Shown one piece after another: positions 10,086 to 30,621 of a DNA stretch of 30,621 bases. Both the position numbers and the translations under genes were made by a program. Each line of letters starts with the position of its first letter. The stretch's first letter is position 1. Under the pieces are notes generated by a model that saw only the letters and a list, made by a program, of their open reading frames with translations, was not told where the DNA came from and searched no databases. This DNA comes from Balamuthia mandrillaris. Its lineage: Eukaryota. The stretch lies in contig JAVKOQ020000067.1 of NCBI GenBank assembly GCA_031835245.2, positions 186,001-216,621 of the forward strand, read 5' to 3'.

Positions 10086-11125
10086 CATTACCTTTAATCC
10101 AAGTTCTCCAAACACGGTTGCAGTTGTGCTCCCCCTTCCTCCAAGGTTTCTTCCGGCAACTGGAGAACAACCTTCAGATTGTCAACCTGAATCCCAACTT
10201 GTGGAACATGGCCCTCGCGAAGTACACACAAGGGTCTAAGACCGCTTCCAGCTGGGTGCAGAACAACATAGTTATACCTCGCTTGCCATGGCATCAGGCC
10301 AGAGACGTCTACGCCACCCACTTCGGCAGCGCGGAACTTCAAACCCCTCTCCATGACGAACTCACTCCTTCATCTCTCCAGCAGCAGCGGAAAAATACCT
10401 CCACCCAGCATCCTGTGAACGCCATCACACCGTCATCTCCCACATCGACGACATGGAGATAGGCGACAGGTCCACCACTCGCGTTACCCGCCGTGCAGCA
10501 CACGTCCGCCTCGACTGTGGCTCCCGTAAGCTACATCACCACTTCTTCATCATGCCGCTTCAAGGTGAGCATGAGATCCTATTCGAAAGAGACATCATGC
10601 GACGCATTAGCGTTGGTCTTTTCGGCCTTCCTGTGCGTTATCCTCTCCCTAGCGAACGAGAAGAGTTCAAGGAAGACGACTCCAACATGTCTGACAAAGA
10701 TCAGTGTGTTGAGCTTCCTCCTCCTCCCGACACTGCTCGAAAAATTGCTGAAGGCATCCGCGACGCGCTCCAACGCAACCAGCAAGTGCCTCATGGCCCC
10801 AGCAGTTCCCTTCCTGAGAGTGTCATCTACCTCAACACCGGCGATGCCAAACCTGTTTTTCGTAAGCAGTACACCATTCCTCAAATGTATCACAACGCGG
10901 TTTTCAGGCAACTCACCGAGTGGCTCCGACACGGCGTCCTTGCGCTATCCTCACTCGACTGCCAGTGGAATTCTCCCATCCTTCCAGTCCCCAAAAAGGA
11001 TGAACACGGAAAATGGTCGAAAGTCAGGATCTGTATTGACCCTGGCGGCATTAACCCTCTCCTCGCTGACGACGAGTACCCGCTCGAGGACACCAAAGTC
11101 CTCATCGAACGAGCTCTAGGCCGCC
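10086..11125 (+). mobile_element. Truncated Ty3/Gypsy remnant (gag fragment, protease C-terminus, RT N-terminus)
   Basis: Gag-like SWVQNNIV..LPWHQARDVYATHFGS, protease-end HEILFERDIM, and RT start KPVFRKQYTIP..WNSPILPVPKK..KVRICIDPGGIN..DEYPL. It breaks off at about 11125. No LTRs seen. Confidence 0.85.
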
Positions 11126-11184
11126 TTTTATTTTATTTTTTATCTTAGAAAAAGGAAAAAAAGAGTTTTTTGTTCTTGTAACCT

Positions 11185-14539: not shown

Positions 14540-16619
14540 TTATTTTGTGATGGAAACATGTTTTTACTGTCATCTTTTCCTCCTTGCGAGGTGTCTGGGC
14601 TGTCTCTGAGAAACAACTGGCACGGCAGAAGTTGAGTTTGCTGTGGAAGTAGTTGTTGCAGCAACTTGGGGGGGAGAAGAAGCAGTGTGGGTAGCTTGAA
14701 GAAGAGGCAGAGAAAGAGGAGGAGATGGGTTGGTAGATGCTGAAGAATGAGAAGAAGCTTGAAAAGAAGAGGAAGAGGAGGAGATGAATGGGGAGACAGA
14801 AGGAGAGATAGAGTTGAAGACAGAAGAGGAGATGGAGATGGTGGAGGAAGTTTTCCTTGCCTACTGTGCTGGCTTAGGTGGTACAATTAGTTCCTCATTC
14901 TGGTACCAAGGGTTGGGCTGCTGTGTCCTCTTGCTTCCTAGTGGAGCCGGGTGAAAGTGATTACTTACATCTCCTTTCCATGGTGATAGTGGGCTCATGC
15001 CATAATGGCCTTGCATCTTCTTTTTTACATAGGTTGTAGAGGCAGGGCTAGTGGACGGCTTGTGCTTACATGCAGCTTTGTTGCTGATGAGTGGTTTTGC
15101 CTTGTTGTTCTTTCTGGGAGCCTTGACACCTGTTGCTGGAGGGACTTTCTTTTTGCCAGTTGTGGTTTTGGGCTTGCAGTTGTGTGGTTTGGCTGACGGA
15201 GGTTGCTTTGGTCAGCTGTTTTCCAAATTTGCAGAAATAGCTTTGCTGAGCTCTTGCTGCTTGGAGGGTTTCTTCTTCTGTCCAGTTGGGAGCGCAAAAT
15301 GTTTCTCTGTGTTTCTTGGTCTACCTTGAGAAACTCTACAAGAGTTCCATTCCTCATCTAGTCACCTTTCCTCTTTATTGGAAAAGTTCAGCATAGGTTG
15401 TTTTATTACTTGACTCCATTCAGGATCCTCCTTTTCACTATCATCCACCTCAGCTTCACCATCATGAGCCTTCTCCTCCTCCTTTGCCTCCTCCTCTGCC
15501 TCCTCCTTTTCCTTCTTCTCCTCCTCCTTTTCCTCTTCTTCCTCCTCCTCTTTCTCCTCATCTTTATCTGCGTCTGCTGCTTTTGCCTCATCTGTGTGAT
15601 GATGATCATCATCAGTGCCCTCCTCCTTGTCATCATTGCTGGTGGTGTTCTCATAGACATGGCTACTGTCATCACTGGAAGTGTTGGTAGGGTTAGAATT
15701 ACTGTCATTGCTGGGATTGCTTTCAACTGTGGGAATGTGAACAGAAGCAGGATGTGGATGGTCAAAAGGACAGCTTTCTGGTGGGAACTCCCTTTAAAAG
15801 TGGTAGCTCAAAAATGTGCTTACACCATTTGCCAGTGCAACAGTAGAAGTTGCAGCTACAGTGCCAAGGGTCAAAACACACATAGTATTCACCAAAGGAG
15901 AAGTGACAGTTGGTTATCAGAGAGAAGTAGCCTTCCTGCACCAGTTTCCAGCCCTTTGCCTGCCTTATCCAGAGTGTGTGGATACTCCTGGAAGGTCTAG
16001 GTTTCTTTTTGGCTGCCAATCTCTGCTGAAACGCCAGATCATGCGATGCAAGGGTCCTTTCTTCCAAGGTAACCAGCATAGTTTCTGGTGCTTTGGCCTT
16101 TTTTTGATGAAAGTCCAGCTGCATTACCTTCTTTCAAAACAACAAAGTATTGTCTTTGTAATGCAAGGTTTTTTGCCTCTATTGTTTTTAAACATGAAAC
16201 TCACACAAAAGAAAAGAAAAACCTGCATCCACTGCAGCCTTTCAGATTGTCCTATCCTTGTCCATCATTATAATGGAGTGGTTTATGCAGTTGCTGCTGC
16301 ATGCAAAAGTATCCCTCTTGGAGGCTACACTGAGGCAAAGCTACAAAGGGGAACATAGTATCTCAATACAACACTTGTTGCAGTCTCTCTTGGTGGCCTA
16401 ACGGCTGCTCCCCTTGTTAACCTCACTGCTTCCTCCTTTCATATATGATGATGTCCTGGATCTTGGAGACAGATGGCAGCAGTTCTTTTGGGATGGCAGC
16501 AGGCAAGCTAAACATTGCCCTAGCTTTCAACTGGCACCTTGCAGAGGATGCAGTGATTAGGCCTTCTGCACTGGTTTCCAATCCATCCTGTGAAAGAATC
16601 TCCTTCTTAAGAAAAGCAG
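14540..16619 (-). pseudogene. Mutator-like (MULE) transposase with SWIM zinc finger, decayed, continuing at 21320-21362 beyond the LTR element
   Basis: IIMMDKDRTI*KAAVDA (about 16275-16225), intron, then VMQLDFHQKKA at the MULE D...(C)xxH position. SWIM finger YYVCFDPWHCSCNFYCCTGKWCKHIF at about 15890-15810, followed by a long acidic then basic/Ser-rich tail with stops. Confidence 0.65.
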
Positions 16620-16752
16620 TGTTATACCACTCCCCCATAATACCTATCCCTCCTTGTATATATATCCCTTTCTTTCATGTTATTAAAGGTCTTTTTCCCT
16701 ATGCCCATTGAGTTGGTGTCAGTTAGGTTGTTCCCCTACCGGCCTTATCATA
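16620..16752 (+). repeat. 5' LTR (133 bp)
   Basis: TGTTATA...TATCATA. It matches 21181-21319 with about 9 substitutions and one 6-bp indel by manual alignment, and contains TATATATA and ATTAAA. Confidence 0.95.
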
Positions 16753-16946
16753 CTTGGCAACATCCTGCCCCTACCCATCCTAAACTTGCGGATAAAGATG
16801 ATGGTCCTGGCTCTGGGTCCAGCTCTTTGTTGTTGAGTGAAGAGGAGGAAGAAAAGGAAAAGGAGAAGAGAGAACCTGCACTCAACCTTACAGCACACCA
16901 TCAAGATTTATGATGACATATTGCCAAACATAGCACTGGTGACAGC

Positions 16947-19900
16947 TTGGGTGATATTCGGCTGATGCAGAGTCTGCTTACCACAGAAATGCTGCTGACT
17001 TTCCATGGCAAGCCAAATGAGGACCCAAACATCTTTTTGACCTTGTTTGACTGCTATGCAACTGCTGCTGGCTGGAGTCATCAGGACTATATCCTTCACT
17101 TTGAAGGACAACTTCATGACAACACTGATGTTGTTTACCACTTTCTCAAGCAAGAATGAATGAAAGGTGGAGTCCTACTAACCCCCACGGAGGTGAAAAC
17201 ACAGCTCCTCAACTGCTTCCAGCATCATGACCGAGTGACTGCTAAGATCATGAAGCTTGGTAACCTCTGAATGAATGTTGATGAGTCTGTAGACACCTGG
17301 AACTTGCAAGTGCATACAGCACTGTGAGAGGCTTTCCTCACAGATTTCAGCGAGACTCAGGTCTTGGAGAAGTTCATCACAGGCACTGTTCCAGACCTGA
17401 AGGAGAAATTCCTTCAGCAGGAAGACATCGCTAATATGGCTGATGCCCTGAACCTTGCTAGAGACTGGGAAGGACGCAAACATGCAAAAAGGAGCTTGGA
17501 CCATTGGTCAAAGAGCTCAAGGCAGGAGAAGAAGGACACTTTTGGCAGTGCTTTGCAGGACACAAAGGGCAAGTCTGGAAGCCAAAGCCAGGTGCTGGCC
17601 AGAAGGACAGTGCTGGTGGAAGGACAGGATTGATGAATATTGTCATCAAGAATGCGTGTTGTCTGCCGAGGATGACATTGAAGATCTCTGGAGGACAGTT
17701 GAGGCCATGCTGGACTCCTGTGCCACTGATAGCTTTGTTCAAGAAACACTTCTACCCAAAGAAGTAAGAATGAGTAGCCTATATAATGGAGATATGTGGA
17801 GAAGTGCCACTGGCCATGAAGTGAAGCCGAAGGGTTATGTCACTCTTTGTTTTTGGATGCCTACTCATGAGAATGTCAAGGTAACTGTTGCTGTCTTGGC
17901 AGAGGATGATCCGATGCCTCATGATTTTCTCATTGGCTGGGACATTTTGGAAGCACGATGACACTGGTTGCTTCTCACTGAGAGCAAACCTGTGGAAGGT
18001 TTGTCTTGCAACTCTGATGATAACCAAGTGTGCACCTCAGTCACAAAGGAGACCCAAGACATTGTGGATGTTATCTACCTGGTGGAGCTTCCCACTGAGG
18101 AAGAGGTAATGACAGGCCTGAAAAAGCTTGTGAACAACATGGACCTGGATATCGAGCAGAAAGCACGGCTTCTAGAGCTGGCCCTTGAATTCAAGGACAT
18201 CTTCTGCTACAAGCTTCCTGAGCCAGGAAGTGTTAAACTTCCACCCCACAAGATAGTCCTAATAGATTATACCCCCATCCGTGTGAAGCCTCACAAGGTC
18301 AGCACCAAGGTTCAGGAGACCATCGACACTGCCATGGATGACATGCTACTCATGGGCATCATTCACAAATCTGTCAGCAAATGGGCACTCCCAGTAATCA
18401 TCATCATCAAGAAGGACAGAAAACCAAGTTTCTGTATTGATTACAGAGAGCTAAACAAACAGACAGTGAAGGACTCTTATCCTATGCAAAACATTGAGGA
18501 TGGACTGAATTGCCTCCATGGCTCCAAGTTCTGGTCCAAGTTTGACCTAGCATGTGGTTATTGGCACTTCCTAATGGAGGAGTGTACTGCAAATATGTGT
18601 GCCTTCATTACTAAAATCCGGCCAGTTTGAGCCTGTGGTTATGCCCTTTGGACCTACCAATGCTCTGGCTATGTTCCAATGAGGAATGGACGAGATCTTT
18701 GGCGAATTCAAGTGGAAGTTTTCTTGGTGTCACATTGATGACCTCATTGTTTTTTCCAAGACATTTGAGGACCACCTTGTTCACTTATGCAAGGTCTTTG
18801 AGTGTCTCCATGAGTATCAACTCTACATGAAAGTCAACAAATGCACCTTTGTAAAGGAGATGATGGAGTACCTTGGACACATGGTGTCTAGTGACAGAAT
18901 TAGTCCCATGCAGAGCAAGGTCAAGGTGGTGCAAGATTGCCCTCGCCCTACCACCAGGAAGCAACTACAAAGCTTCCTTGGACTTGCAAACTACTATCAC
19001 AAGTTCATCCATCATCTTGCCAAGATGGTGAAGCCCCTCACTGACCTCATGAGCCCCAAAACAAAGTTCGTGTGAAGCAACGAGCAGGAACAGGCTTTCC
19101 AAGGGATAAAGGAGGCTCTTATCAGTTCTCCTGTCCTTGCCTATCCTGATGCTGAAAAAGACTTTCGGATCTGCTGTGATGCCAGCAATTATGCCATCAG
19201 AGGAACTTTGGAGCAGAAAGGAGAGCCCACATTGTAGCCTACAGTAGCAAGAAGCTTTCCAGTCTGCAGCTCAACTGGAGCGCTACAGAAAAGGAGGCTT
19301 ACACCATTGTCTTCTTCTTGTAGCATTGGAGATATTACTATTCTTCAGCAGCTAGAATGTGTTGTTACAGACCACTTGGTGCTGCAATGGCTGTTCTCCC
19401 AGAAAAACCCTTCTGGCAAGTTGGTGAGGTGGATTGCCAAGCTGCAGGAATTCGGCCACATCCAAGTTACCCACTGACCAGGGAAAGAACATTCAAATGC
19501 CAATAGTCTCAGCTGTGAACCATTCGCTCTTGGTGCAGTCAACACTGTTACTTGTCCAAAGAACCATAAACAGGTTACTTTTGCAGATGGAGGGGAAGGC
19601 AGCCAGTCAGATGATGAAGACAACCGTGGGATACAGTCACAAGAGAATGGCTCCCTGCAGGTTTTACCGGATATGGAGTTGGATCCCAACTCATGGCTTG
19701 AGCTGCTGTGTATCAACAATGAATTTTCATGGATTGTTGAAGCCATTGAAGGCAATGAGGAGGCATATCAACATAAGACACCCCGTCAGTTGGTGCTTAT
19801 GGAGCAGTGCTTCCTCCAAGATGGATATCATTTATGCATGATTTGGCCTGATAAAGCCAAGGTCAAACAAGCTACTGTCCAACAAATCATGCCCAAGGAG

Positions 19901-21130
19901 CTTAAGAACAAGATACTTCATCAGTTTCATGATGTTCCTACGAGTGGGCATTTCGGCCTTACAAAGATGTACTCCCGCCTCATCATGTAGTACTGGTGGC
20001 CTAGTATTCACAAAAATGTGGAACATTGGGTCAAGGGCTGTGTGGAATGCCAGGAGGCGAAGGCTCTGTGGAAGAAAGCTGATGAGCCATTGGGTCACAT
20101 CATTGCAAATGAGCCAGGTGAGTTGGTCTGCATGGACCTGATTGGTGAGTTGCCCTTGATGGCTGAAAAGTACTGATATGCCTTGGTCACCATTGACGCC
20201 TTTATGTGTTGGCTGAACATTCGTCCATTGAAGATGAAACAAGCAAAGGAAATGGCGAAGGCCTTACTTGAGATCTTCACAAGCACAGACCTCTTGAAGG
20301 AGCTTCTGTCTGATCAAGGAAGAGAGTTTGTTAACAAACTCAACAATGAGCTTTTGACTCTTCTGGGCATCAAGTGTAAATATGCCATGGCAGAGCATCT
20401 CCAAGGAAATGGCATGATTGAATAATACAACTGCACCCTTAAGGAGCAGCTCTGCAAATTCATGGATGGCAGGCAACAAGCCTGGAGTGCGTACCTTCCA
20501 ATGCTACTTTATTCTTATCACCATGCGCTGCTGCCAGGACGACGATTTACCCCTTATGAGCTAATGTTTGGAAGGAAGTCCAAAGGTACTGGTTTGGTGG
20601 ACACTACTCATCTGTCCGACAATTTGTGGGTGAGGCAACTGCAGGAGACACAGCATGAACTTGCAGAAGAAGCCTGTGGAGTAGACAACATTCAAAAGAA
20701 GAAGATGAAGAAACGGCATGGCAAGCCGAAGGATGAGTTTAAGGTTGGCAACCTGGTTCTCATTCACTCCAAAGCCACATCAGTAGGTGAGTCAAGGAAA
20801 CTTCAACATAGTTGGAAAGGAGGACCTTACAAGATTATTGAAATTTGTTCTCCACAGACAATCAAGGTGCAGAATACTGCTGGTCCTGAAACAGTTAAAG
20901 TGGTAAACCTCAACTGCATCAAACAATTCATCCCACGTAACGACAAAGATAGAGAGCTTGCTGATGATGAATATGAGGTTGAGAAAGTTTTAGATCACTG
21001 CTACACCAGTCAAGGACTTGAATATAGGTTGAAGTGGAAAGGTTTCTCCAACCACAACTCTTGGGAGCCTGAATGTAATGTTATCAACGCCCCAGACCTG
21101 GTCCAGGCATATTGGAGAGCGGTATCATGA
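16947..21130 (+). pseudogene. gag-pol polyprotein with many stops and frameshifts
   Basis: Gag FHGKPNEDPNIFL; protease MLDSCATDSF; RT FCIDYRELN, KFDLACGYWH and CHIDDLIVFS; RNase H CDASNYAI; integrase HDVPTSGHFG..CVECQ, LSDQGREF and WKGGPYKI; chromodomain YEVEKVLDH..EYRLKWKGF..NSWEPE. The start is approximate. Confidence 0.93.
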
Positions 21131-21180
21131 TTATCAGCCTGACAGTCAATCACAGATGACTTTGGCCTGGGAGGGGGAAG

Positions 21181-21319
21181 TGTTATACCACTCTCCCATA
21201 ATACCTATCCCTATCTCTCCTTGTATATATATCTCTTTCTTTCATTTTATTAAAGGTCTTTTTCCCTACGCCCATCAAGTTGGTGTCCGTTAGGTTGTTC
21301 CCCTACCAGCCTTATCACA
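21181..21319 (+). repeat. 3' LTR (139 bp)
   Basis: TGTTATA...TATCACA, directly after the polypurine tract and directly before the GCAG duplication. Confidence 0.95.
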
Positions 21320-21506
21320 GCAGGAACAGGCAACACATCATGGTAGAGGATGAAACATTCTCTAAGGGTTAGGGGCGGGTACTCAGAACCTACGGCATTC
21401 AACTCCCCATGGTCCATTCTATAAAACTCTAAGTCTATAAGTCTAACGGATAAAGTGGGTCAAAGTAGCAATTTTTTCAATTTTTGTATAGGAATGACTA
21501 TATAAT

Positions 21507-22690
21507 CTAACAAGATATAATCATAATATCATCATCATCATCATCATCATTCTCCTCTGTCTCTTCCTCTTCATCCAAGATGGATATAACTGTAGTGGTA
21601 GTAGAAGTAGGAGATGATGATGGGGAGGAAGTGTTGTCATTATCATCATCATCCGATTTGTCAAAGTCCTCATCGTGGGCCACCAAGTATTTGGCCTTCA
21701 AAGCGTCCAGATTGTTGGAGAATTCTGTGAGGAGATTGCGCCATTTATCATAGCAATCATTGTTGGTTCGATGTTGGGTAGGCAAGTGTTTGGCAATCTC
21801 CAACCAAGACCATTCATCACGCAAGCGCCAAGTGACAAGTCTACGGATTTCTGGTGCCTGCCAAGTGATTCGTTGCTGATGGCCATTCTTCTGATATTTG
21901 AGTCGACTGGATAACAATTGTTGTTGCTGAAGTGCTCTGCGAAGTCGTTGTCGTCGTGGTGTTTGTTTTTTTGAGTCAGGACTCTTGTCATCATCATCAT
22001 CAAGAGAAGCAAGGAAGGAGGATGATGGCTCTTGACGAGGGGTGAGGAATGCTTTGTGAATGGGTGATCCGTTGACCAACTTGGGAAGTATAAGAGCTAC
22101 AAACTCATCCACCAGCTCATTCAAGCCACTGAAAAAGCTTTGTAGAATGCCAGAGATGTGTTGACAGCACAGCTGGCGATGAATATTGGGCCAACGAAGA
22201 GGAGATTTGTTTTTGGCCTCATAGGTGGCTGCAGCTTCAGCTAGCACATCCTTATCAAACTCATCTGGATGATTTTCTACCCAAGCAGTACAACATTCAA
22301 GCCATAAGGAGCGATAAAATCGTATTTGTTGATCTTTGGTTGGCAAATCTGTTCGTTTCATGAACCACCTAAAGAAGCAGTGTAAACGAAGAAAGAGAAA
22401 GCGAGAAAGAAAGAAAGAACAAGAGAAAGAGAAAGAGAAAGAGAAAGCGAGAGAAAGAAAAAGGGAAAGAAAGAAAAAGGGAAAAGAGACAAAAAACAAA
22501 GTGTGAGTGAATGTCAAAAGAAGAACAAATGAACCAAGACCAATCATAACAATTATTGTTTAGACTATGAATGTTGCTGCTGCCACAATAAACCTGTGCG
22601 TTCTAGCTGAGCGCTAGGTCTAAGGGTGCATTTTTGAATGCAAGCAAGCAAGCAAACAAACAAGCCATGACTGACTGGATAGATAAATAA

Positions 22691-22746
<56 letters not shown>

Positions 22747-23731
22747 TGGTGATGGTGGTGGATACTATGCAAACAAAACAAACAAACAACACACAAACAA
22801 ACCGTTGGCGAACAGCATGAATAAAACTCTGATAGTTGGTATCTGCAGACCAGTTGGATTGTTGCAAAGCATCTGGGGATAGATTGTGAAATGCTTCTTT
22901 GGTAACTAGCTCTGGAGCAATAACTGTATGCATGCAAGGAAGTGAGGATGAAAAGAACCAAAAAGAGAGCAAGTCAGTCCATCAAGTGGTAGTGGTGATG
23001 GTGGTGGTGATGGTGGTAGTGGTTTATTGACGCTGGTCAGGCAGCCAGCCCAGCCAAAGAAAAAACAAAAGAAAAAACAAAAATCAGATGAGCAGTAATG
23101 AACCGCAATGTCAAGGAGGATGATAATCAGCAGTGGTAGTTGTAACAGAGGATGAAGAAGAAGAAGAAGAAGAAGAAGAAGAAGAAGAATGAGGATGAGT
23201 GGTGGTAACATTGCTGACCAAGTGATTGGCCATAATAGCACGTTTTAATGTATCCTTGATGTAGACTTGCTGGGATCTACCACGAGGTACCCAACCTGCG
23301 ATAAGGGCAGTAGTATCCAGTACATTGTTCTGACTGTGACCTTCCTGCAGTCCCTCCAAGATCAAGGCAGTGCAAAGGAAGCCAGCACGCAAGGAGTGAA
23401 AGGAAAACAATCCTTCAGGATAACCAGCCTGAACAGCCCGATCTTGCAACTTGGCATTTAAAGTATCGCGTGACCATCCCCATAATGATGTTTGTTTTTG
23501 TGCATCTGTTAAGCACCAGTTGTGAAACTCGCGCAAATCCAAACCATGCTTGCATAACAGATGCTTGTTTAACCAGTAAATAAAATCTCCAAGACAAATG
23601 CTTGGTGTTGATGTTGTTGATGTGGCGGTGGCGGTGGTGGCAGCAGCAGCAGCAGAGGTCGTAGCAGTGACGATGCTAAGTGGTGATGATGATGATGATG
23701 GTGATGGTGAAGAAGATGATCCTCGTGATGA

Positions 23732-23765
<34 letters not shown>

Positions 23766-25815
23766 GGTGTTAAATAACCTTCAAATGTAACGACATGATT
23801 CCAATGATTTGGTATTCCTTTGGTGACTTGTTGGCGCAACGAAAGGAAATAAAGAGGAGGAGCAGAAAATGCATCCTCTTGGTGATGGCAGCTGAGGTTG
23901 CCATTGTTGTTGTTGTTGTTGTTGGAAGAGGAGGATGAAAGTTTAGGTCGAAATGCCACAATATCACCCAAATGAATGTTTGCAGCTGTAATGGCTCTGG
24001 CACCAGTACAAACACTGTGTAACCAACAACTGGCTTCACCAGCTTTGCTCACCAGTCCATCTGGAGTGGATGCGATGATATGTAAGACATCATCTAACAA
24101 ACATGCGTCTTTGCACAATTGTTTGCTAGAACAGGAGGGTTTGGCTCTTTTGCAATGCTGAATGGCCTGTTTGACTTGATCTTTGATGGCATCCATTTGG
24201 TTTTTTAGCAACAACAAGTAAGCATGGTCTGAGGTTGCCGTCAATGCTGTAGTGCGTCCTGTCGCTCCTGTTGTGGCTACTCGAGTGACACCATCACCAA
24301 GAATGGTTCTGGATAAAGGAGAAGGAGGAGGAGAAGTGGTAGGTGATGATGATGCTGGAGACAAAGAGATCATGGAGGAAACAGAGGAGGAGGAGGAGGA
24401 GGAGGAGGAAGAGGAGAAGGAGGAGGATGCAGAAAGGGAGTCAAGCTGTTGTTGGATACTTTCATCATGCAAATGATAAAGACTGGCAATCATGACATCA
24501 CACACAGAGCTCAAGGCATAACCCACATCCAAAATCAACCATTGAACAAAGGCTCCTACATTATGATGTTGGAGATTCAAAGGAAGAGCTGGCAAACATT
24601 TATGATGCGCACAATGTGCTTCCCAGATGGTCAAAGTCCAGGCATGTTTATGTTGGGTAGAAGGGCTTCATCGACTCATCACTGTCGTCAACTCTGTCCA
24701 TTGCTCTTCTGTCAAATGGTTCATCAATGTGATAGCACGAGAAAGACGTCTTCCTGCACCATCACCACCACCATTACTACTACTGCTGTCATGTGTAGTA
24801 TCATCATCAGTATCATCCTTTGTTCTAGCTCTATTTTGTTGTTTCTCTATTTTTCTCTTTTTTCCTTGTTTTTCTTCTTTTTGTTCTTCTTCATCTTCTT
24901 CTTCGTCTTCAGTTAACAACAACAAATCTATCAATGTTGGTGGAGTTGTTGTTTTGCTTGTTGCATCTATATCTGTTTCTACTCCTCCTCTTCTTCCTCT
25001 TAATGAGGATGATGATGATGATGATGATGATGATAAATTACTGTCATCACCGCTATCCATAACATCACCATCATTGTTCTCAAAGACAAAGGACTCTGAA
25101 TTTGAAGAAGAAGAAGAAGAAGAAAAAGCAGAAGAAGAAGAAAAAGAAGAAAAAGAAAAAGAAGAAGAAGAAGAAGAAGAAGAAGAACACAAAGAAGAAG
25201 AAGAAGAAGAAGAAGATGAAGAAGATGAAGAAGAAGAAGAAAAAGGAGGAGAAGAAGGGAGAAAAGAAGAAGAAGAAGGAGGAGGAGAAGAAGGAGAACA
25301 AGAAGAAGAAGAAGAAGAAGAAAAAGCAGAAGAAGAAGAAAAAGAAGAAGAAGAAGAGGTCGTCCTTTCTAATGATTGTTGTTGTAGTTGTTGTTGTTGT
25401 TGTAGTTGTTGTGGTTGTGATTGAGTAAATGATGAAGTGGGAGTAATGGTGGTAGTAGTGGATGAAAAGGGTGATGCAGAAAATGGAGGAGGTGAAAAGA
25501 GCTCTGCAGGATTATCAACAACAATAACAGGAGCAGAAGCAACAACAGTAGCTGGTGGTGGTGTTTTTAACAAATAATGATCCAAAAACTGCTTGCGAAC
25601 AAATGACTGAGTGTTGAGAGCCTGATAGGGAGCAAAGTGATGATTGAAAGATGTTGCTGATGAGGATGAGGATGATGATATTGAGACAATCGTTACTTCA
25701 TCATCCTCTTCTGTTGCTGCTGCTGTTGCTATTGCTACCTCTTTGTTGTTGTTGTTGTTGTTGTTATTTAGTGATGATGGTTGGTCAAAGACAGCAGGAA
25801 TAGATATATTATCTT
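21507..25815 (-). pseudogene. Tyrosine recombinase with C-terminal telobox-like Myb domain (copy 1), in-frame TGA at 24670-24668
   Basis: Catalytic set R (TGARAI), K (VTKG), HxxR (FSFHSLRAGF), W (IAGW) and Y (QQVYIK). Later exons are 22923-22803 and 22368-21507. Myb domain TWQAPEIRRL..WLEIAKHL..RTNNDCYDKWRNL at about 21866-21729. The 5' end and the splice donor near 23110 are unresolved. Confidence 0.88.
22679..22746. repeat. (GATA)n microsatellite in an intron of YR copy 1
   Basis: Directly visible tandem repeat. Confidence 0.95.
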
Positions 25816-26006
25816 CTGTTTGTTGTTGTTGTTAAACAAGCAAATTGTAGACACAAACACAAACACAAACAACAAATGTTGGAAACAAAAGAAACAAGAA
25901 GTTAGTAGGTCTAGTCTGGATGAATGAAGATATAGATAATAATAAATAATGAGAACTATTTGGAGACTTGTTTTTGTTTTTCCTCTCCTTTCCATTCTTT
26001 ATCATT

Positions 26007-26042
<36 letters not shown>

Positions 26043-26442
26043 TTTTTCTTTCTTTCTTTCTTTTTTTCTTTCTTTCTTTCCTTTTTACATCTGGCAGTAG
26101 CAGGAGGTTCATTTTTATAATTGCCTTTTCATTCTTTGTTTGTTTACATTTCTTGTTGTCTTTCTATTAGTATTATTATTTGCAACAATACTACTGTTTT
26201 TGCTTGTTTGTCATGTCACTCACTCCCTTATTCACCATGCTATGCTTAACAACTCTTACCATCACCATCACTGCCACCACCACCATCACTGTTCTACCAT
26301 CCATCCATCTATCCATCCATCCATCCATCCATCCATCCATTGTTTAACCAGTATTATTACCACCGATCAACCAACCAATCAACTAACTCAAGCTTTCTCT
26401 CAAACAACCAAACTAATATAACGAAAAAGAGGAAGAGATCAC

Positions 26443-26857
26443 CTGCCTGAGTTATGGTGTTGTGAACGAGTTGTGGCTCCTTTTCTGCTGCTACTGCTAG
26501 ATGAGGCAGCCACGGCAGCAGCAGCTCTTTGCAAAGATGATTTGGCAGCAGCAGTAGCAATAGCCTTTTGAGCAGCAGCTGCAGCCTTGCGCGTAGATTT
26601 GCTGCTAGGGCTCTTAGTAGCACTTGTGTTTTCCTCTTCTTTCTGTTTTTCTGCTTCTTTTTCACCAGCTTCTGCTTCTGCTGCTTTTGGTTCTTCTTTT
26701 TCTTTTTCTTCTTTTTTTTCTTTTTCTTTTTTTTCTTCTTCTTCTTCTTCTTCTTCTTTTTGTTCTTGTTCTTCCTGCTCCTCCTCCTCCTCTTCTTCAT
26801 TTTGTGCTGCTGCTGCTGCTGCTTGTTTCTCTGGGCCATTAGCAGGTTTTTTTGATA
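26443..26857 (-). other. Orphan exon encoding an Ala/Glu/Lys-rich low-complexity segment
   Basis: Flanked by a polypyrimidine-TAG acceptor (26860-26858) and a GTGATC donor (26442). Open frame SKKPANGPEKQAAAAAQNEEEE..STRKAAAAAQKAIA..HNSG. Confidence 0.45.
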
Positions 26858-26969
26858 CTAGAACAACAACAACAACAACAAAAATCAGTAAGGCTTGAAT
26901 GAGAAATCACAAAGGCATAACAGTGCAAACAAACTTCAAAAAGATAGCGCTCCGCTGGAGCGCTATAGG

Positions 26970-26987
26970 TTAGGGTTAGGGTTAGGG
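26970..26987 (+). repeat. Interstitial telomere-type repeat (TTAGGG)3
   Basis: Three perfect TTAGGG units preceded by TAGG. Confidence 0.9.
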
Positions 26988-27259
26988 GCGAGTACTCTTA
27001 AACCTAAGCTAGCCTCTCCTTGTAACTTAAAGAAATATCATAAAAAACTAAGTCTAAAATAGATACACTTATATTGTGATGAAATTTTTTTTAATCTTTT
27101 CTAAAGTTGTAAATATCAATAAAAAGGCAGTTTTGTTAAAATATTTTTATAATACTAAGAAAAAAATGTTGAAGATAAAGAAATAACAACAACATAAAAA
27201 AAAACTTAATATCATAAAAACATTTCAACATGAAAATAGAAAATAAAAAACAAACAAAA

Positions 27260-29957
27260 TCAAATATTAAAATGTTGACAAATAGCTTTTTCACTACCAT
27301 ACTTAAGCATTAAGTTTCTCCATTTGTCTTTGCAGTCCACATTTGTCCTGAGTTGCTGAGGTAAAGTTGATGCAATCTCAACCCAAGTAGCTTTTTTATG
27401 AAGACGCAAATGAATCAACTCTTTTGTTTCTTCATCACTCCAAGGTTGATGTTGACGATGATTGGAAGTTTTGATGCGAGTTCTTGGAGTAGAAGTTTGA
27501 AGTTGAAAGGGTCCATTTTTTCATTTTTTGTAAGGTACTTGCTTCAAAGGTGAATGGTTTTGTAGATGAGGTAATGCAGGTTCTATGAATGCTTCCAAAA
27601 GCTCATCTAAAAGTTGAAAGTTGCCTGCCAACAAGCTTGCAATATGTCTTCTTCCAACAATCGTTTTGATGTGATTAAGTGGTGGTGATGCATCTTGAGA
27701 GTTATTTCTTTGCTTGAATGCTTCCATTTCCTGGCTCATCTCTTCTTCAACTTCATCTTCATGATTGTCTATCCATGCATGTAAGCACTTTTGCCATAAA
27801 GACTTGCATAATTTAGCATGATCTGACTTGGATAAATCAGTTCTGCTTTGGAATCTAAAATAAATAAAAATTAATGAATAAAATGAGTGAGTTAAGCACA
27901 AGAAAAATAAACAAAATAAACAAAATAATAATAATAATAAAGTAAAAAATACACCAACCTTTCCATAACTTTGTCATAAAAGGCTTCATAATTAGTTTGT
28001 AAAGACCACTTTGAAGTCAAAGGTTCTTTCAAATTATGAAATACTTCTTTGGTAACTAAAGTTGGATCCATCAAACTGGTTGAAGAGGCTTCACCTAATT
28101 GATTGTATGTGCAAAAGAAAATAAAAAGTAAGATAAGTTTTTCTTTCTTTCTCAAATTAAAAAAAAAAGAAAAAATAAAATACCTGAGGAAGAAACTAAT
28201 CTATTAGCAACCATGGATTTGATAGCAGTGCTTTTCACATAACGTTGTTGAGAACGTCCATAAGGCTGCCAACCAGCAATAAAAGCTGTAGATTCCAGTA
28301 CTGCATTTCTTTGTTGACTGTCATTCAAACCCTGCTTGATCAAAGCAGTGCAAATGAAACCAGCTCTCAAAGAATGGAAAGTAAAGAGGCCTGGAGGATA
28401 GTTGGCTTGGCTAGCACATTTCTTCAGTCTGGCATTCAAAGCATCAGGGCTCAGTCCCCACAAAGAAGTAGCTTGTTGTTGAGGAGAAAGATTCCAAGCA
28501 GAAAACTCTTCTAAGCATAAAGAATGAGTTTCTTGAAGATGAAGATTAAGCCAGTAGATGAAGTCAGCTGTGGGGTTGATGTGAGGAGGAGGATGAAGGT
28601 AGCCTTCCAAAGTAATCATGTGATTCCAATCTCCTGGTTTTCCTTTGGTAACTTGATGAAGAAGTGAAAAGAAGCAGAGACTGTGAGGATCAGAGGGATC
28701 TTGGATGATGAAGTTCTGAAAATGTCCAAGAAGAATGTTGGAAGCTGTGATGGCTCTAGCTCCAGTGCTTACACTATGCAACCAACAACTGGCATCTCTT
28801 GCTTTTTTGCGTTTACCATCCGGAATCATCGTTATGATTTGAATCACATCATCCCTCAAACAAGCATCTCTCATTCTTCCTGATCTTGTACAAGATGGAG
28901 CACGTTGTTTGCACTTCTTTGCTGCCAAATTCACAGTATCTTGTATCTTTTGTGGTACTTGCTCTCCTCCTGTTTCTTCCATATGAATATGATACAAACT
29001 TGCCACAATAACATCTTTTGCTGAAGTCAAAGCATATCCAACAGTCATCACCAACCATTCCACAAATGCTCCAAGATGATGTTTATCTGCATCCAAAGGA
29101 AAAGGTTCAAGTTTCCACTTATCACAAAATGCTGTCCAAATCAATCTGGCCCAGGCATGTTTTCGCAAAGTTGAATCACTCCATCATGAAGAAGTTGCAC
29201 TCAAGTATTCCCATCTTTCTAACATTAAAGAAGGAAGCATACGAATAGCTCGAGACACTCTTGCTGATGGGGTAGTGGTTGGTAATGCTTGTGATGATTG
29301 TTGTTGTGGTTGTACTTTCTCTTTTCTTTTTGTTTTTGTTGGTTCATTTTCTGCTTCACTTTCTGAAGAAGAAGAAGAAGAAGAAGAAGAACAATCTACC
29401 AAATCAATGAAAAGAGTAGAAGTTGTTGTTGGAGTTGTTGAAGTTGTAGTCAAGTCTATTAAAGAAGAAGAAAAAGAAGAAGAAGAAGAAGAAGAAAAAT
29501 AAAAATCATCATTATTGGTCTCTCTTTCCTTCTCTTTTTCTTCTTCATCTGATGTTGCAAAAAAACTATCATTATCTTCTTCAAAATTAAAAGCATCATT
29601 GTCATCATAAAAAATGGGAATGAATGAAGAAGAAGAAGAAGAAGAAGAAGAAGAAGAAGAAAAAAAAGAAGAAGATGATGATGATGATGATTTCAAGGTG
29701 GAAGTTGAAGTTGTAGAAGAAGTAGATGCAGATGATATTATCATTTTTTGTTTTTGTTGAGTGTGAAAGGATCTTTGAAGCAAGATAAAAATGAATAAGA
29801 AATAATAATTCAAAAAAAATTACTTTTAAAATAAATAAACAAACCTTTTACATTTTTTGCTACAAAAAAGTTGATTTGATTGAGGACAAGGAATCAAATT
29901 CAAACAAAGTGAACAATGTACTTTTTTTGAAGTTGAAGGTAGCATTGTTGTTGACAT
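27260..29957 (-). pseudogene. FCS-type zinc finger + tyrosine recombinase + telobox-like Myb (copy 2), with two in-frame TGA codons
   Basis: Exons 29957-29845, 29772-28184, 28094-27959 and 27854-27260 splice in frame. Motifs are CSLC..FCSKKCKRSFH; TGARAI, VTKG, FTFHSLRAGF, IAGW and QQRYVK; and PWSDEETKEL..WVEIASTL..RTNVDCKDKWRNL (27445-27311, absent from the ORF track). TGA codons at 29186-29184 and 27523-27521. Confidence 0.9.
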
Positions 29958-30294
29958 AAAATATTGGTAGAAAATAAAAAAAAAATTCACTTAAAAAGAC
30001 TTTGTAAAAGAAAAAACACAATTAAAAAAATAAGAGGGGAAAAACAAGTGGAAAAAGTGTGAACTGTTTGTGAAAAAATAAAAAAATAAACTTTAATTGT
30101 AAAAAAAATGTTTGAGGAGTTAAATTTTGGATTTTTGTAGACATGTCGACAGAAAATAACCGAAAAACCATAATAGAAAGGCGCTATCGAAGGATGACTA
30201 TTTAAAAGGGCGAAAAAAACATTATATTTTTCGAAAGCTCCAGGGAAAAGAAGGGGAGATTAACCTAGGTCGTTCAATTGATTGATTGGCTTAC

Positions 30295-30385
30295 GTTGTT
30301 ACATATGAACCAATAATTGAAAGCATTTAGTACTGGTGAAAGAACAATGCTGGAAATTGTTGGGACAGGGGCACTGCCTTGCCAT
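30295..30385 (-). pseudogene. Possible first exon with a C2H2-like zinc finger and a premature stop
   Basis: MARQCPCPNNFQHCSFTSTKCFQLLVHM*Q followed by a strong GTAAGC donor at 30294. The frame choice is uncertain. Confidence 0.3.
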
Positions 30386-30621
30386 ATCTTTCCGTTAAGA
30401 CAAAATGGCTGCATGGGCCCACCCGCTTCTCATTCCTGCATTCACTTGAAGAAGGAAATATCCGTTGAAATATTGCATTGAGATTGGGTTCCTTTGGAAA
30501 GGTTTGTTTGGTATAGAGAAGAGTAGTCACTTAGAAGGACAACCTGACTCTGGAGTGATTTTTTTTTGAAATTTTTTTTAAATATAGCAATTTTATCCAA
30601 GTTAAAAAAAAAAACAAATGA

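What the first reader, a model, noticed from the sequence alone, without database searches (positions are those of the whole stretch)
21363..30270. Tyrosine-recombinase transposons fused to a telobox-like Myb domain and ending in TTAGGG repeats
Seen: two diverged spliced genes each have a full YR catalytic set (R-K-HxxR-W-Y), a shared helical middle region and a C-terminal single Myb repeat ending RTNVDCKDKWRNL (copy 2) or RTNNDCYDKWRNL (copy 1). About 120-270 bp past each stop codon lies a conserved end containing GGGTTAGGG, with three TTAGGG units in copy 2. Known: single-Myb telobox proteins (TRF1/TRF2, plant TRFL/SMH with VDLKDKWRN) bind double-stranded TTAGGG-type repeats, and Cryptons are RT-less, intron-containing YR elements. 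I do not know of a Crypton family with this fusion. Inference: the recombinase uses its Myb domain to recognise telomere-type repeats in its own end and/or its targets, which would make this a telomere-repeat-reading DNA transposon. Caveat: trihelix and Reb1-like Myb domains have similar CxDKW/CRDRW helices.
Basis: partly seen in the sequence, partly recalled or inferred. Interest (0 to 1): 0.9.

Follow-up and report, generated by a model that had tools for sequence, protein, structure and literature searches.

The report
Telomere-tipped recombinase-Myb transposons of protists
These are two broken copies of a multicopy jumping-gene family, found in amoebae and other protists, whose DNA-cutting enzyme is fused to a Myb DNA-binding domain and whose end carries a telomere-type repeat, which the protein likely recognises when the element moves.

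Summary
Real, and wider than reported. Both genes encode a Cre/Xer-fold tyrosine recombinase (YR) plus a C-terminal Myb. They belong to two multicopy Balamuthia mandrillaris families. Both window copies carry premature stops, and copy 2 runs past the window edge. The family is large (333 clusters); 83 of 90 full-length relatives keep the Myb. Telomere-type tracts adjoin 23 of 30 related metagenome loci: TTAGGG in standard-code hosts, TTGGGG in one TAA/TAG=Gln (ciliate-like) clade. There, different paralogs form head-to-tail arrays that switch partners exactly at the tract. A GTTR-N7-SWAC core, spaced like a YR crossover site, follows the tract in five lineages, both window ends included. Balamuthia copies are dispersed in non-telomeric DNA and carry the repeat themselves. 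That the Myb reads the repeat is unproven: profile scores favour c-Myb/Reb1 repeats over TRF, and three TTAGGG-associated relatives lack the telobox residues. Verdict: a Crypton-like, reverse-transcriptase-free YR transposon group with telomere-repeat ends, not found in the papers searched. The scan earlier noted YR-Myb fusions and a telomere-embedded Crypton-like element on other DNA (unchecked, kinship untested).

The parts
26966..30621 (-). Element copy 2 (family 2). The 3' terminus is at about 26966; the 5' terminus lies beyond the window.
   Evidence: three other flanks join at 26962-26966, the left flank continues without the element in runs X6 and X7, depth is high to 30621, and contigs run past the edge.
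26966..27007 (+). Terminal site of copy 2: TAGG(TTAGGG)3, the GTTA-N7-GTAC core (26981-26995), then a degenerate inverted arm.
   Evidence: (inverted arm p=0.037).
27260..27854 (-). Copy 2 exon 3: helical middle region, premature TGA at 27523-27521, Myb (27448-27311), stop.
   Evidence: other copies read a sense codon at the TGA.
27959..28094 (-). Copy 2 exon 2, between GT-AG introns 28183-28095 and 27958-27855.
   Evidence: Spliced contig in run X7 (table 8).
28184..29744 (-). Copy 2 exon 1: low-complexity N-terminus, premature TGA at 29186-29184, and the YR core-binding and catalytic domains (R, K, HxxR, W, Y).
   Evidence: fold of the 93%-identical P0001 matches Cre/XerH.
30234..30557 (.). 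Region inside element 2, upstream of the ORF, that carries most of the few RNA reads. It has a terminal stem followed by a T-run; its nature is unknown.
   Evidence: 30 reads, 4 with a back-joint; no Rfam hit; folding z -1.8.
21363..21400 (+). Terminal site of copy 1: TAAGGG TTAGGG and the GTTA-N7-GTAC core (21368-21382).
   Evidence: a depth-824 unitig starts here in run X6; inverted arm not significant.
21507..22370 (-). Copy 1 last exon: middle region, Myb (21869-21732), acidic tail, stop.
22787..22945 (-). Copy 1 short middle exon (borders approximate, inferred).
   Evidence: tblastn.
23192..25831 (-). Copy 1 YR exon with Ser-rich insertions and a premature TGA at 24670-24668; the 5' border is unresolved.
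   Evidence: other copies read a sense codon.
26860..26965 (.). Repeated DNA with a 10-bp-stem hairpin into which copy 2 is inserted. It is possibly the 5' part of element 1 (untested).
   Evidence: high depth; continues with other sequence in X6 and X7.
21324..21362 (-). Piece of a degenerate host-element ORF that copy 1 interrupts; it continues in frame left of the Gypsy element.

Best explanation
The two genes are decayed members of multicopy, reverse-transcriptase-free transposon families that encode one tyrosine recombinase-Myb protein and end in a telomere-type repeat; the recombinase likely excises and re-integrates the element through a circular DNA, at or beside a site built from that repeat, with the Myb predicted to help grip it. 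SHOWN: the YR fold and catalytic residues; the conserved Myb fusion; many dispersed copies; a fixed end with varying flanks; a telomere-type tract followed by a GTTR-N7-SWAC core in five lineages; TTAGGG in Balamuthia, which is its telomere repeat; TTGGGG in a code-6 clade. INFERRED: circular intermediate and crossover chemistry (by analogy with Cryptons); that the core is the crossover site; that code-6 and L002/L004 elements integrate into telomere tracts while Balamuthia families carry the tract and insert at unrelated sites; that the window copies would need intact relatives to move. LEAST SURE (about 50%): that the Myb, rather than the YR core alone, reads the repeat.
For: Fold: AlphaFold model of P0001 matches Cre (Foldseek E 1.4e-5; VIA Z 16.7 over 279 residues, rmsd 18.6 because the two domains sit differently) and XerH (Z 15.5, rmsd 3.0 over 180). 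The 7 invariant columns among 70 relatives are the six catalytic residues plus one Gly. Multicopy: 17 proteins in the 90% cluster; the 15 listed lie on contigs of different lengths, and two are fused by annotation to unrelated host genes. Contig depth is high in X3 and X6 for both families. Junction: 3 other flanks and an element-free flank form; copy 1 interrupts an ORF. Family: 333 clusters at E<=1e-3; Myb in 83 of 90 full-length members among 158 examined, with Pfam agreeing for 11 of 12 and 27 of 35. Ends: tract of 12 nt or more in 23 of 30 loci; 0 of 300 simulations reach the observed run in 6 of 6 tested. Core motif: 29 hits against 4.6 in shuffles, 27 directly after a telomere-type repeat. 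L008, L009 and L011 share a 3.2-kb unit at 99.9% and switch to three different next units at the TTGGGG tract. L002 and L004 end in telomere arrays; L001 is a 3,412-bp unit with overlapping contig ends. No RT in those units or in 15 other ORFs tested. Balamuthia telomeres are TTAGGG (bioRxiv 2025.02.25.640156). Copy 2 keeps 6 of 7 letters of the telobox LKDKWRN, including the K, D and R that contact telomeric DNA.
Against: No excision circle or recombination was shown; the L001 overlap could be a tandem array. The 5' ends of both window elements are unseen, so terminal direct repeats are untested. Myb profile scores favour c-Myb/Reb1. L004, L007 and L027 have TTAGGG tracts, but their Myb helices lack K-D-x-x-R. 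Copy 1 has Y for K. Four accessions end at the same stop before the Myb, so Myb-less copies may have multiplied. The TTAGGG/TTGGGG contrast rests on a single clade (1 change) of unnamed host. The core motif was derived from these same sites, and the inverted arm is significant in only 10 of 23 sites. In Balamuthia the junction lies about 15 bp outside the core, which does not fit the core being the crossover. Seven of 30 loci lack an exact tract: L005, L010, L024, L028 and L029 are truncated or interrupted, L001 is degenerate, L006 has none in view. Gene orientation relative to the tract differs between lineages. Each alternative flank rests on one contig.
Confidence: 0.62

Rival explanations
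1. Same mobile family, but the YR core alone recognises the telomere-like arm. The Myb is a generic accessory domain that binds another subterminal motif (for example CTAAGTCTA) or regulates transcription.
For: The profile prefers c-Myb/Reb1. Helix 3 is variable: 32 of 88 keep K-D-x-x-R, and Cys replaces the telobox Leu in 54 of 88. Three tract-bearing loci lack the residues. CTAAGTCTA occurs at 21429 and 27048 and in contigs just past the window edge. Telomere-targeting YRs exist in TATE and nimaviruses, with no Myb mentioned in the passages read.
Against: The D (65 of 88) and final R (61 of 88) are the commonest residues at those positions. Some members read LKDKWRN exactly (P0005, L006). 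The code-6 clade has both a changed repeat and a changed helix.
Confidence: 0.25
2. The elements are non-autonomous retroelement derivatives (TATE/DIRS-like elements that lost RT, or retrozyme-like units) that spread through RNA, using an RT in trans and their own YR for integration.
For: A hammerhead ribozyme fold follows the stop in code-6 units: 272 of 272 cells paired, with one compensatory pair in the pseudoknot. Tandem telomeric arrays resemble TATE. Four RNA reads show a back-joint in element 2.
Against: Balamuthia genomic copies keep their introns. No RT was found in any unit. No hammerhead was found in standard-code loci or in the window.
Confidence: 0.08
3. The genes are domesticated host genes or segmental duplicates, and the TTAGGG runs are interstitial telomere remnants.
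For: Near-identical stop-bearing copies could be alleles or duplications.
Against: A sharp shared end with different flanks; insertion into an ORF; premature stops; partner switching at the tract; a conserved core next to the tract in five lineages.
Confidence: 0.05

Closest known systems
Crypton DNA transposons, especially CryptonF and CryptonS (PMC3212892, parts 1-2 of 7 read; PMC9977147, passages)
   Same: Single YR ORF without RT, with a C-terminal domain (the DNA-binding GCR1_C in CryptonF); a circle-excision model; YR sites of two inverted arms with a 6-8 bp spacer.
   Different: The C-terminal domain is a Myb. No GCR1_C or DUF3504 Pfam hit in 47 family proteins. The end carries a telomere repeat. 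Hosts include an amoebozoan, an oxymonad and a code-6 protist, none in that paper's host table.
CryptonV (known here only from one sentence in PMC8869645 citing Repbase Reports 2012)
   Same: YR DNA transposon, some families inserting specifically in microsatellites.
   Different: Described from cnidarians.
TATE of Leishmania (PMC6681497, passages)
   Same: YR-encoding; sits in tandem clusters inserted in telomeric hexamers (GGG^TTA).
   Different: TATE is a retrotransposon with RT and RNase H; the word 'myb' does not occur in that paper.
Telomere-inserting endogenous nimaviruses (PMC10871703, passages)
   Same: A YR family linked to insertion in host telomere repeats; concatemers spanning the repeat tract.
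   Different: Large viral genomes (300-360 kb for pemoniviruses); YR with C2H2 and SAM-like domains; here a 3-4 kb single-gene element.
TBE1 (Oxytricha), Tel-1 (Tetrahymena) and Paramecium telomeric Helitrons (one passage of PMC13085455; PMC5405496, passages)
   Same: Ciliate elements bearing or inserting in telomere repeats.
   Different: TBE1 is Tc1/mariner and the Paramecium elements are Helitrons; the Tel-1 coding content was not seen. Paramecium and Tec YRs accompany a DDE transposase, and none was found here.
Telobox Myb proteins TRF1/TRF2, TRB, Entamoeba TRF-like (PMC10887745, PMC8867601, passages)
   Same: Single Myb with a basic N-terminal arm and, in copy 2, KDKWRN with the K, D, R base contacts.
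   Different: Cys for Leu, a variable helix across the family, and whole-domain scores no closer to TRF than to c-Myb or Reb1.

Membership tests
Tyrosine recombinase superfamily | Catalytic R-K-H-x-x-R-(H/W)-Y | tested here: met
   Present in both copies; invariant in 70 of 70 aligned relatives.
Tyrosine recombinase superfamily | Cre/lambda-Int core-binding plus catalytic fold | tested here: met
   (model of P0001, 93% identical to copy 2); relatives L008 and L013 pass the Pfam Phage_integrase cut-off.
Crypton (broad sense) | YR as the only transposase; no RT, no DDE | tested here: met
   Complete units L001 and the code-6 units have one coding ORF; no RT in 15 other ORFs; window ORFs. The 5' parts of the window elements are unseen.
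Crypton (broad sense) | Multicopy, with insertion polymorphism | tested here: met
Crypton (broad sense) | 4-6 bp terminal direct repeats, no TIRs | not testable with these tools
   The 5' ends lie outside the window and no genome is held.
Crypton (broad sense) | Circular excision intermediate | tested here: inconclusive
   L001 has a 155-bp terminal overlap with one mismatch: circle or tandem array.
Crypton (named groups) | YR groups phylogenetically with CryptonF/S/A/I/V | not testable with these tools
   No reference Crypton sequences were obtained; the tree holds family members only and is a quick, unfinished search.
CryptonF | C-terminal GCR1_C domain | tested here: not met
   No such Pfam hit in 12 + 35 proteins; Myb instead.
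CryptonA/I | No C-terminal domain; DUF3504-type YR | tested here: not met
   Middle domain and Myb follow the YR; no DUF3504 hit.
DIRS/TATE/VIPER retrotransposons | Encoded RT and RNase H | tested here: not met
   for fully seen units.
Telobox Myb | Helix-3 motif LKDKWRN with K, D, R contacts | tested here: inconclusive
   Copy 2 CKDKWRN (K, D, R kept); copy 1 CYDKWRN; family 32 of 88.
Telobox Myb | Whole domain closer to TRF/TRB than to c-Myb, Reb1 or trihelix | tested here: inconclusive
   TRF1 first by about 2 bits among single-repeat chains; c-Myb and Reb1 first with the wider profile; trihelix GT-1 low in both.
Telobox Myb | Binds duplex telomeric DNA | not testable with these tools
   Needs EMSA or SELEX.

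The most novel reading that the evidence does not exclude
An undescribed pan-protist superfamily of YR DNA transposons that captured a telomere-reading Myb and built its recombination site from the host telomere repeat. Site and Myb helix change with the host telomere (TTAGGG versus TTGGGG). In some hosts the elements stack head-to-tail inside telomere tracts, in one clade with a hammerhead ribozyme clipping each transcript, and so help build chromosome ends. In Balamuthia they left telomeres but kept the repeat as a portable handle.
Probability: 0.35. Interest if true: 0.88.

Novelty: new variant of a known kind. Interest (0 to 1): 0.72.

Why it matters
Telomere-targeted YRs are known in retroelements and viruses, and target-specific Cryptons in cnidarians. 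A compact single-gene DNA transposon family with a Myb fusion and telomere-repeat ends was not found in the papers searched. It gives a directly testable case of how a site-specific recombinase acquires repeat specificity and tracks the host telomere sequence. It also offers a candidate source of short interstitial TTAGGG runs and telomeric arrays in protists, and possibly a small natural recombinase for repeat-directed integration. For Balamuthia it identifies an unannotated repeat family that corrupts gene models.

Tried and rejected
No whole genome is held, so copies could not be catalogued. A single-sequence fold failed (pLDDT 38.7). Pfam and PDB sequence searches alone miss the YR of the window copies. 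No relatives in viral contigs (0 of 28 pattern hits; end motif 0) or prokaryote genomes (0 of 11); these pattern scans are narrow. A Myb-only search returned only 2 Balamuthia proteins among 14 candidates, so no Myb tree against telobox, trihelix and Reb1 sets was possible. The protein Atlas did not complete. Rfam found no credible RNA in 21000-30621 and only a tRNA in 20 loci; the hammerhead was found by motif and pairing. TGA readthrough was rejected: copy 2's true stop is TGA, and other copies have sense codons at the internal stops. A host-gene reading was rejected. Raw RNA reads (3% and 5% of two runs) showed essentially no coverage of either ORF; this is weak evidence of silence. The 324-nt RNA region has no match in the loci or elsewhere in the window. 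Loci L031-L034 (weak, GC-rich) were left out of counts. Paper searches found no description of a YR-Myb element. Repbase Reports, subscription journals and supplements were not seen, and could hold one.


Full report
OBSERVATION. Six-frame reading shows two minus-strand genes with the YR motifs GAR, TKG, FHSLRAG, AGW and QxxY and a C-terminal Myb. Their YR exons are 43% identical. GGGTTAGGG occurs only at 21366, 26973 and 26979, against 0.07 expected. The two regions past the stops align beyond chance. Copy 2 has exons 29744-28184, 28094-27959 and 27854-27260 (764 codons); a contig of run X7 lacks exactly these introns.

HOST AND COPY NUMBER. The best hit is a Balamuthia mandrillaris protein, 93% identical. 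Its 90% cluster has 17 members; the 15 listed lie on contigs of different lengths. A third family (P0002, 52%) and a family-1 relative (P0186) exist. Public contigs laid on copy 2 show high depth up to 30621, sense codons at both stops in the major unitigs, three other flanks joining at 26962-26966 (one contig each; 8 loose ends not shown), and the left flank running on without the element in two runs. Copy 1 is likewise multicopy, with a sense codon at its stop. It interrupts an ORF that continues in frame on the far side of a Gypsy element. All five Balamuthia flanks seen are non-telomeric, so the repeat travels with the element. Balamuthia telomeres are TTAGGG (bioRxiv 2025.02.25.640156, passages). 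Four accessions stop at the same codon before the Myb; these may be trans-mobilised copies, alleles or duplications.

PROTEIN. An alignment-based model of P0001 (mean pLDDT 72.6) matches Cre, XerH and lambda integrase. A full search gave 333 clusters at E<=1e-3, of which 150 were listed. Of 158 proteins examined, 90 had a complete YR end and at least 170 further residues, and 83 of these carry a Myb by a family-built profile. Pfam agrees for 11 of 12 and for 27 of 35 profile-positive proteins. In 70 aligned members only R, K, H, R, G, W and Y are invariant. Named members come from Balamuthia and Monocercomonoides exilis, which has several copies; the rest are unnamed. No viral or prokaryotic relative was found.

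ENDS IN RELATIVES. A metagenome scan gave 34 loci, 30 of them clear relatives. Ten use the standard code and form seven families. L003 and L027 have (TTAGGG)3 before the gene. L007 has the tract about 240 bp after the stop, oriented as in the window. L002 (same family as L003) and L004 end in telomere arrays. L001 is a 3,412-bp circular or tandem unit with a degenerate site. L006 and L010 show none in the DNA held. Twenty loci belong to a group read with TAA/TAG as Gln (code tested on 14); 18 of the 20 have (TTGGGG)2-8 before the gene. TTGGGG with this code suggests a Tetrahymena-like ciliate (my knowledge; host unnamed). These loci are tandem arrays of paralogs: one 3.2-kb unit is followed by three different units in L008, L009 and L011, switching at the tract, whose length varies from 12 to 47 nt. 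Read inwards, the tract is followed by GTTR, seven bases and SWAC in both window ends, L001, L003, L027 and the code-6 clade: 29 hits against 4.6 in shuffles. The pattern is post hoc and the code-6 loci are redundant. An inverted arm is significant in 10 of 23 sites (L001 was mis-anchored in that test). This geometry fits YR sites of two inverted arms and a 6-8 bp spacer (PMC3212892). The code-6 members form one clade (support 99, quick unfinished tree of 66 rows), so the repeat contrast is a single event.

THE MYB. Copy 2 reads CKDKWRN against the telobox LKDKWRN (PMC10887745) and keeps the Lys, Asp and Arg that contact telomeric DNA in TRF1/2 (PMC8867601; matching the positions rests on my recall of the TRF1 helix). 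Against this, only 32 of 88 family domains keep K-D-x-x-R; L004, L007 and L027 have tracts without it; and the broad profile ranks c-Myb and Reb1 above TRF (one search gives TRF1 a 2-bit lead among single-repeat chains). A second candidate site, CTAAGTCTA, lies near both 3' ends and in contigs just past the window edge. Myb reading of the repeat is therefore about even odds.

MECHANISM. Most likely Crypton-like: YR excision to a circle and re-integration. This has been proposed for Cryptons and is consistent with active CryptonF (PMC3212892; PMC9977147). The terminal site is built from the host telomere repeat. Arrays and telomere-adjacent copies suggest integration into telomere tracts in some hosts; Balamuthia families carry the tract and insert elsewhere. 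Unresolved: the Balamuthia junction lies outside the core, gene orientation relative to the site differs between lineages, and code-6 units carry a hammerhead fold shortly after the stop (272 of 272 cells paired, one compensatory pair; 42 of 500 shuffles reach that covariation, so it is weak alone).

COMPARISON AND NOVELTY. It works like a Crypton but fails the defining C-terminal features of CryptonF and CryptonA/I. Kinship with CryptonV (microsatellite-targeting; one sentence in PMC8869645) is untested. Telomere-inserting YRs are known in TATE and nimaviruses; telomere-bearing ciliate elements use other enzymes. Nine literature searches found no YR-Myb element. Repbase and supplements were not seen. 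Earlier scan notes report YR-Myb fusions and a telomere-embedded Crypton-like element in other genomes, but sequence look-ups found no related window. Verdict: a new variant of a known kind, interest 0.72.

Noticed in passing
window 16620-21319: Decayed chromodomain Gypsy LTR retrotransposon; LTRs about 90% identical, GCAG target duplication, Pfam Chromo E 2e-12.
   Followed up: partly
window 15765-16619 and 21324-21362 (minus strand): Degenerate ORF with a SWIM-like Cys/His motif (MULE-like by recall; no Pfam hit) that hosts both the Gypsy element and copy 1: a nest of elements.
   Followed up: partly
window 30234-30557: The only RNA-covered part of element 2; four reads join its end back to its start; terminal stem followed by a T-run, like a small Pol III or circular RNA.
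   Followed up: partly
L008:1793-1872 and equivalents in the code-6 loci: Type I hammerhead ribozyme fold with a loop-II pseudoknot shortly after each YR-Myb stop; missed by Rfam cut-offs.
   Followed up: partly
window 26943-26966: Perfect 10-bp-stem hairpin at the insertion site of copy 2, inside another repeat.
   Followed up: no
P0128; P0009, P0010, P0050, P0147, P0179: One relative adds a C-terminal chromodomain; five have two Myb repeats.
   Followed up: no
L028:3-596: piggyBac-like transposase fragment (PF13843) replaces the 5' end of the L027-family element.
   Followed up: no
L007:3599-3671; L002:2180-2450: tRNA-Met gene 250 bp beyond the L007 tract; a tRNA-like, structured stretch downstream of the L002 gene.
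   Followed up: no
window 10357-11148: A second retroelement-like pol fragment by eye (protease/RT start); no Pfam hit.
   Followed up: no
P0018, P0025: Balamuthia gene models in which this element is fused by annotation to a Rap1GAP or DEAD-box helicase gene.
   Followed up: no
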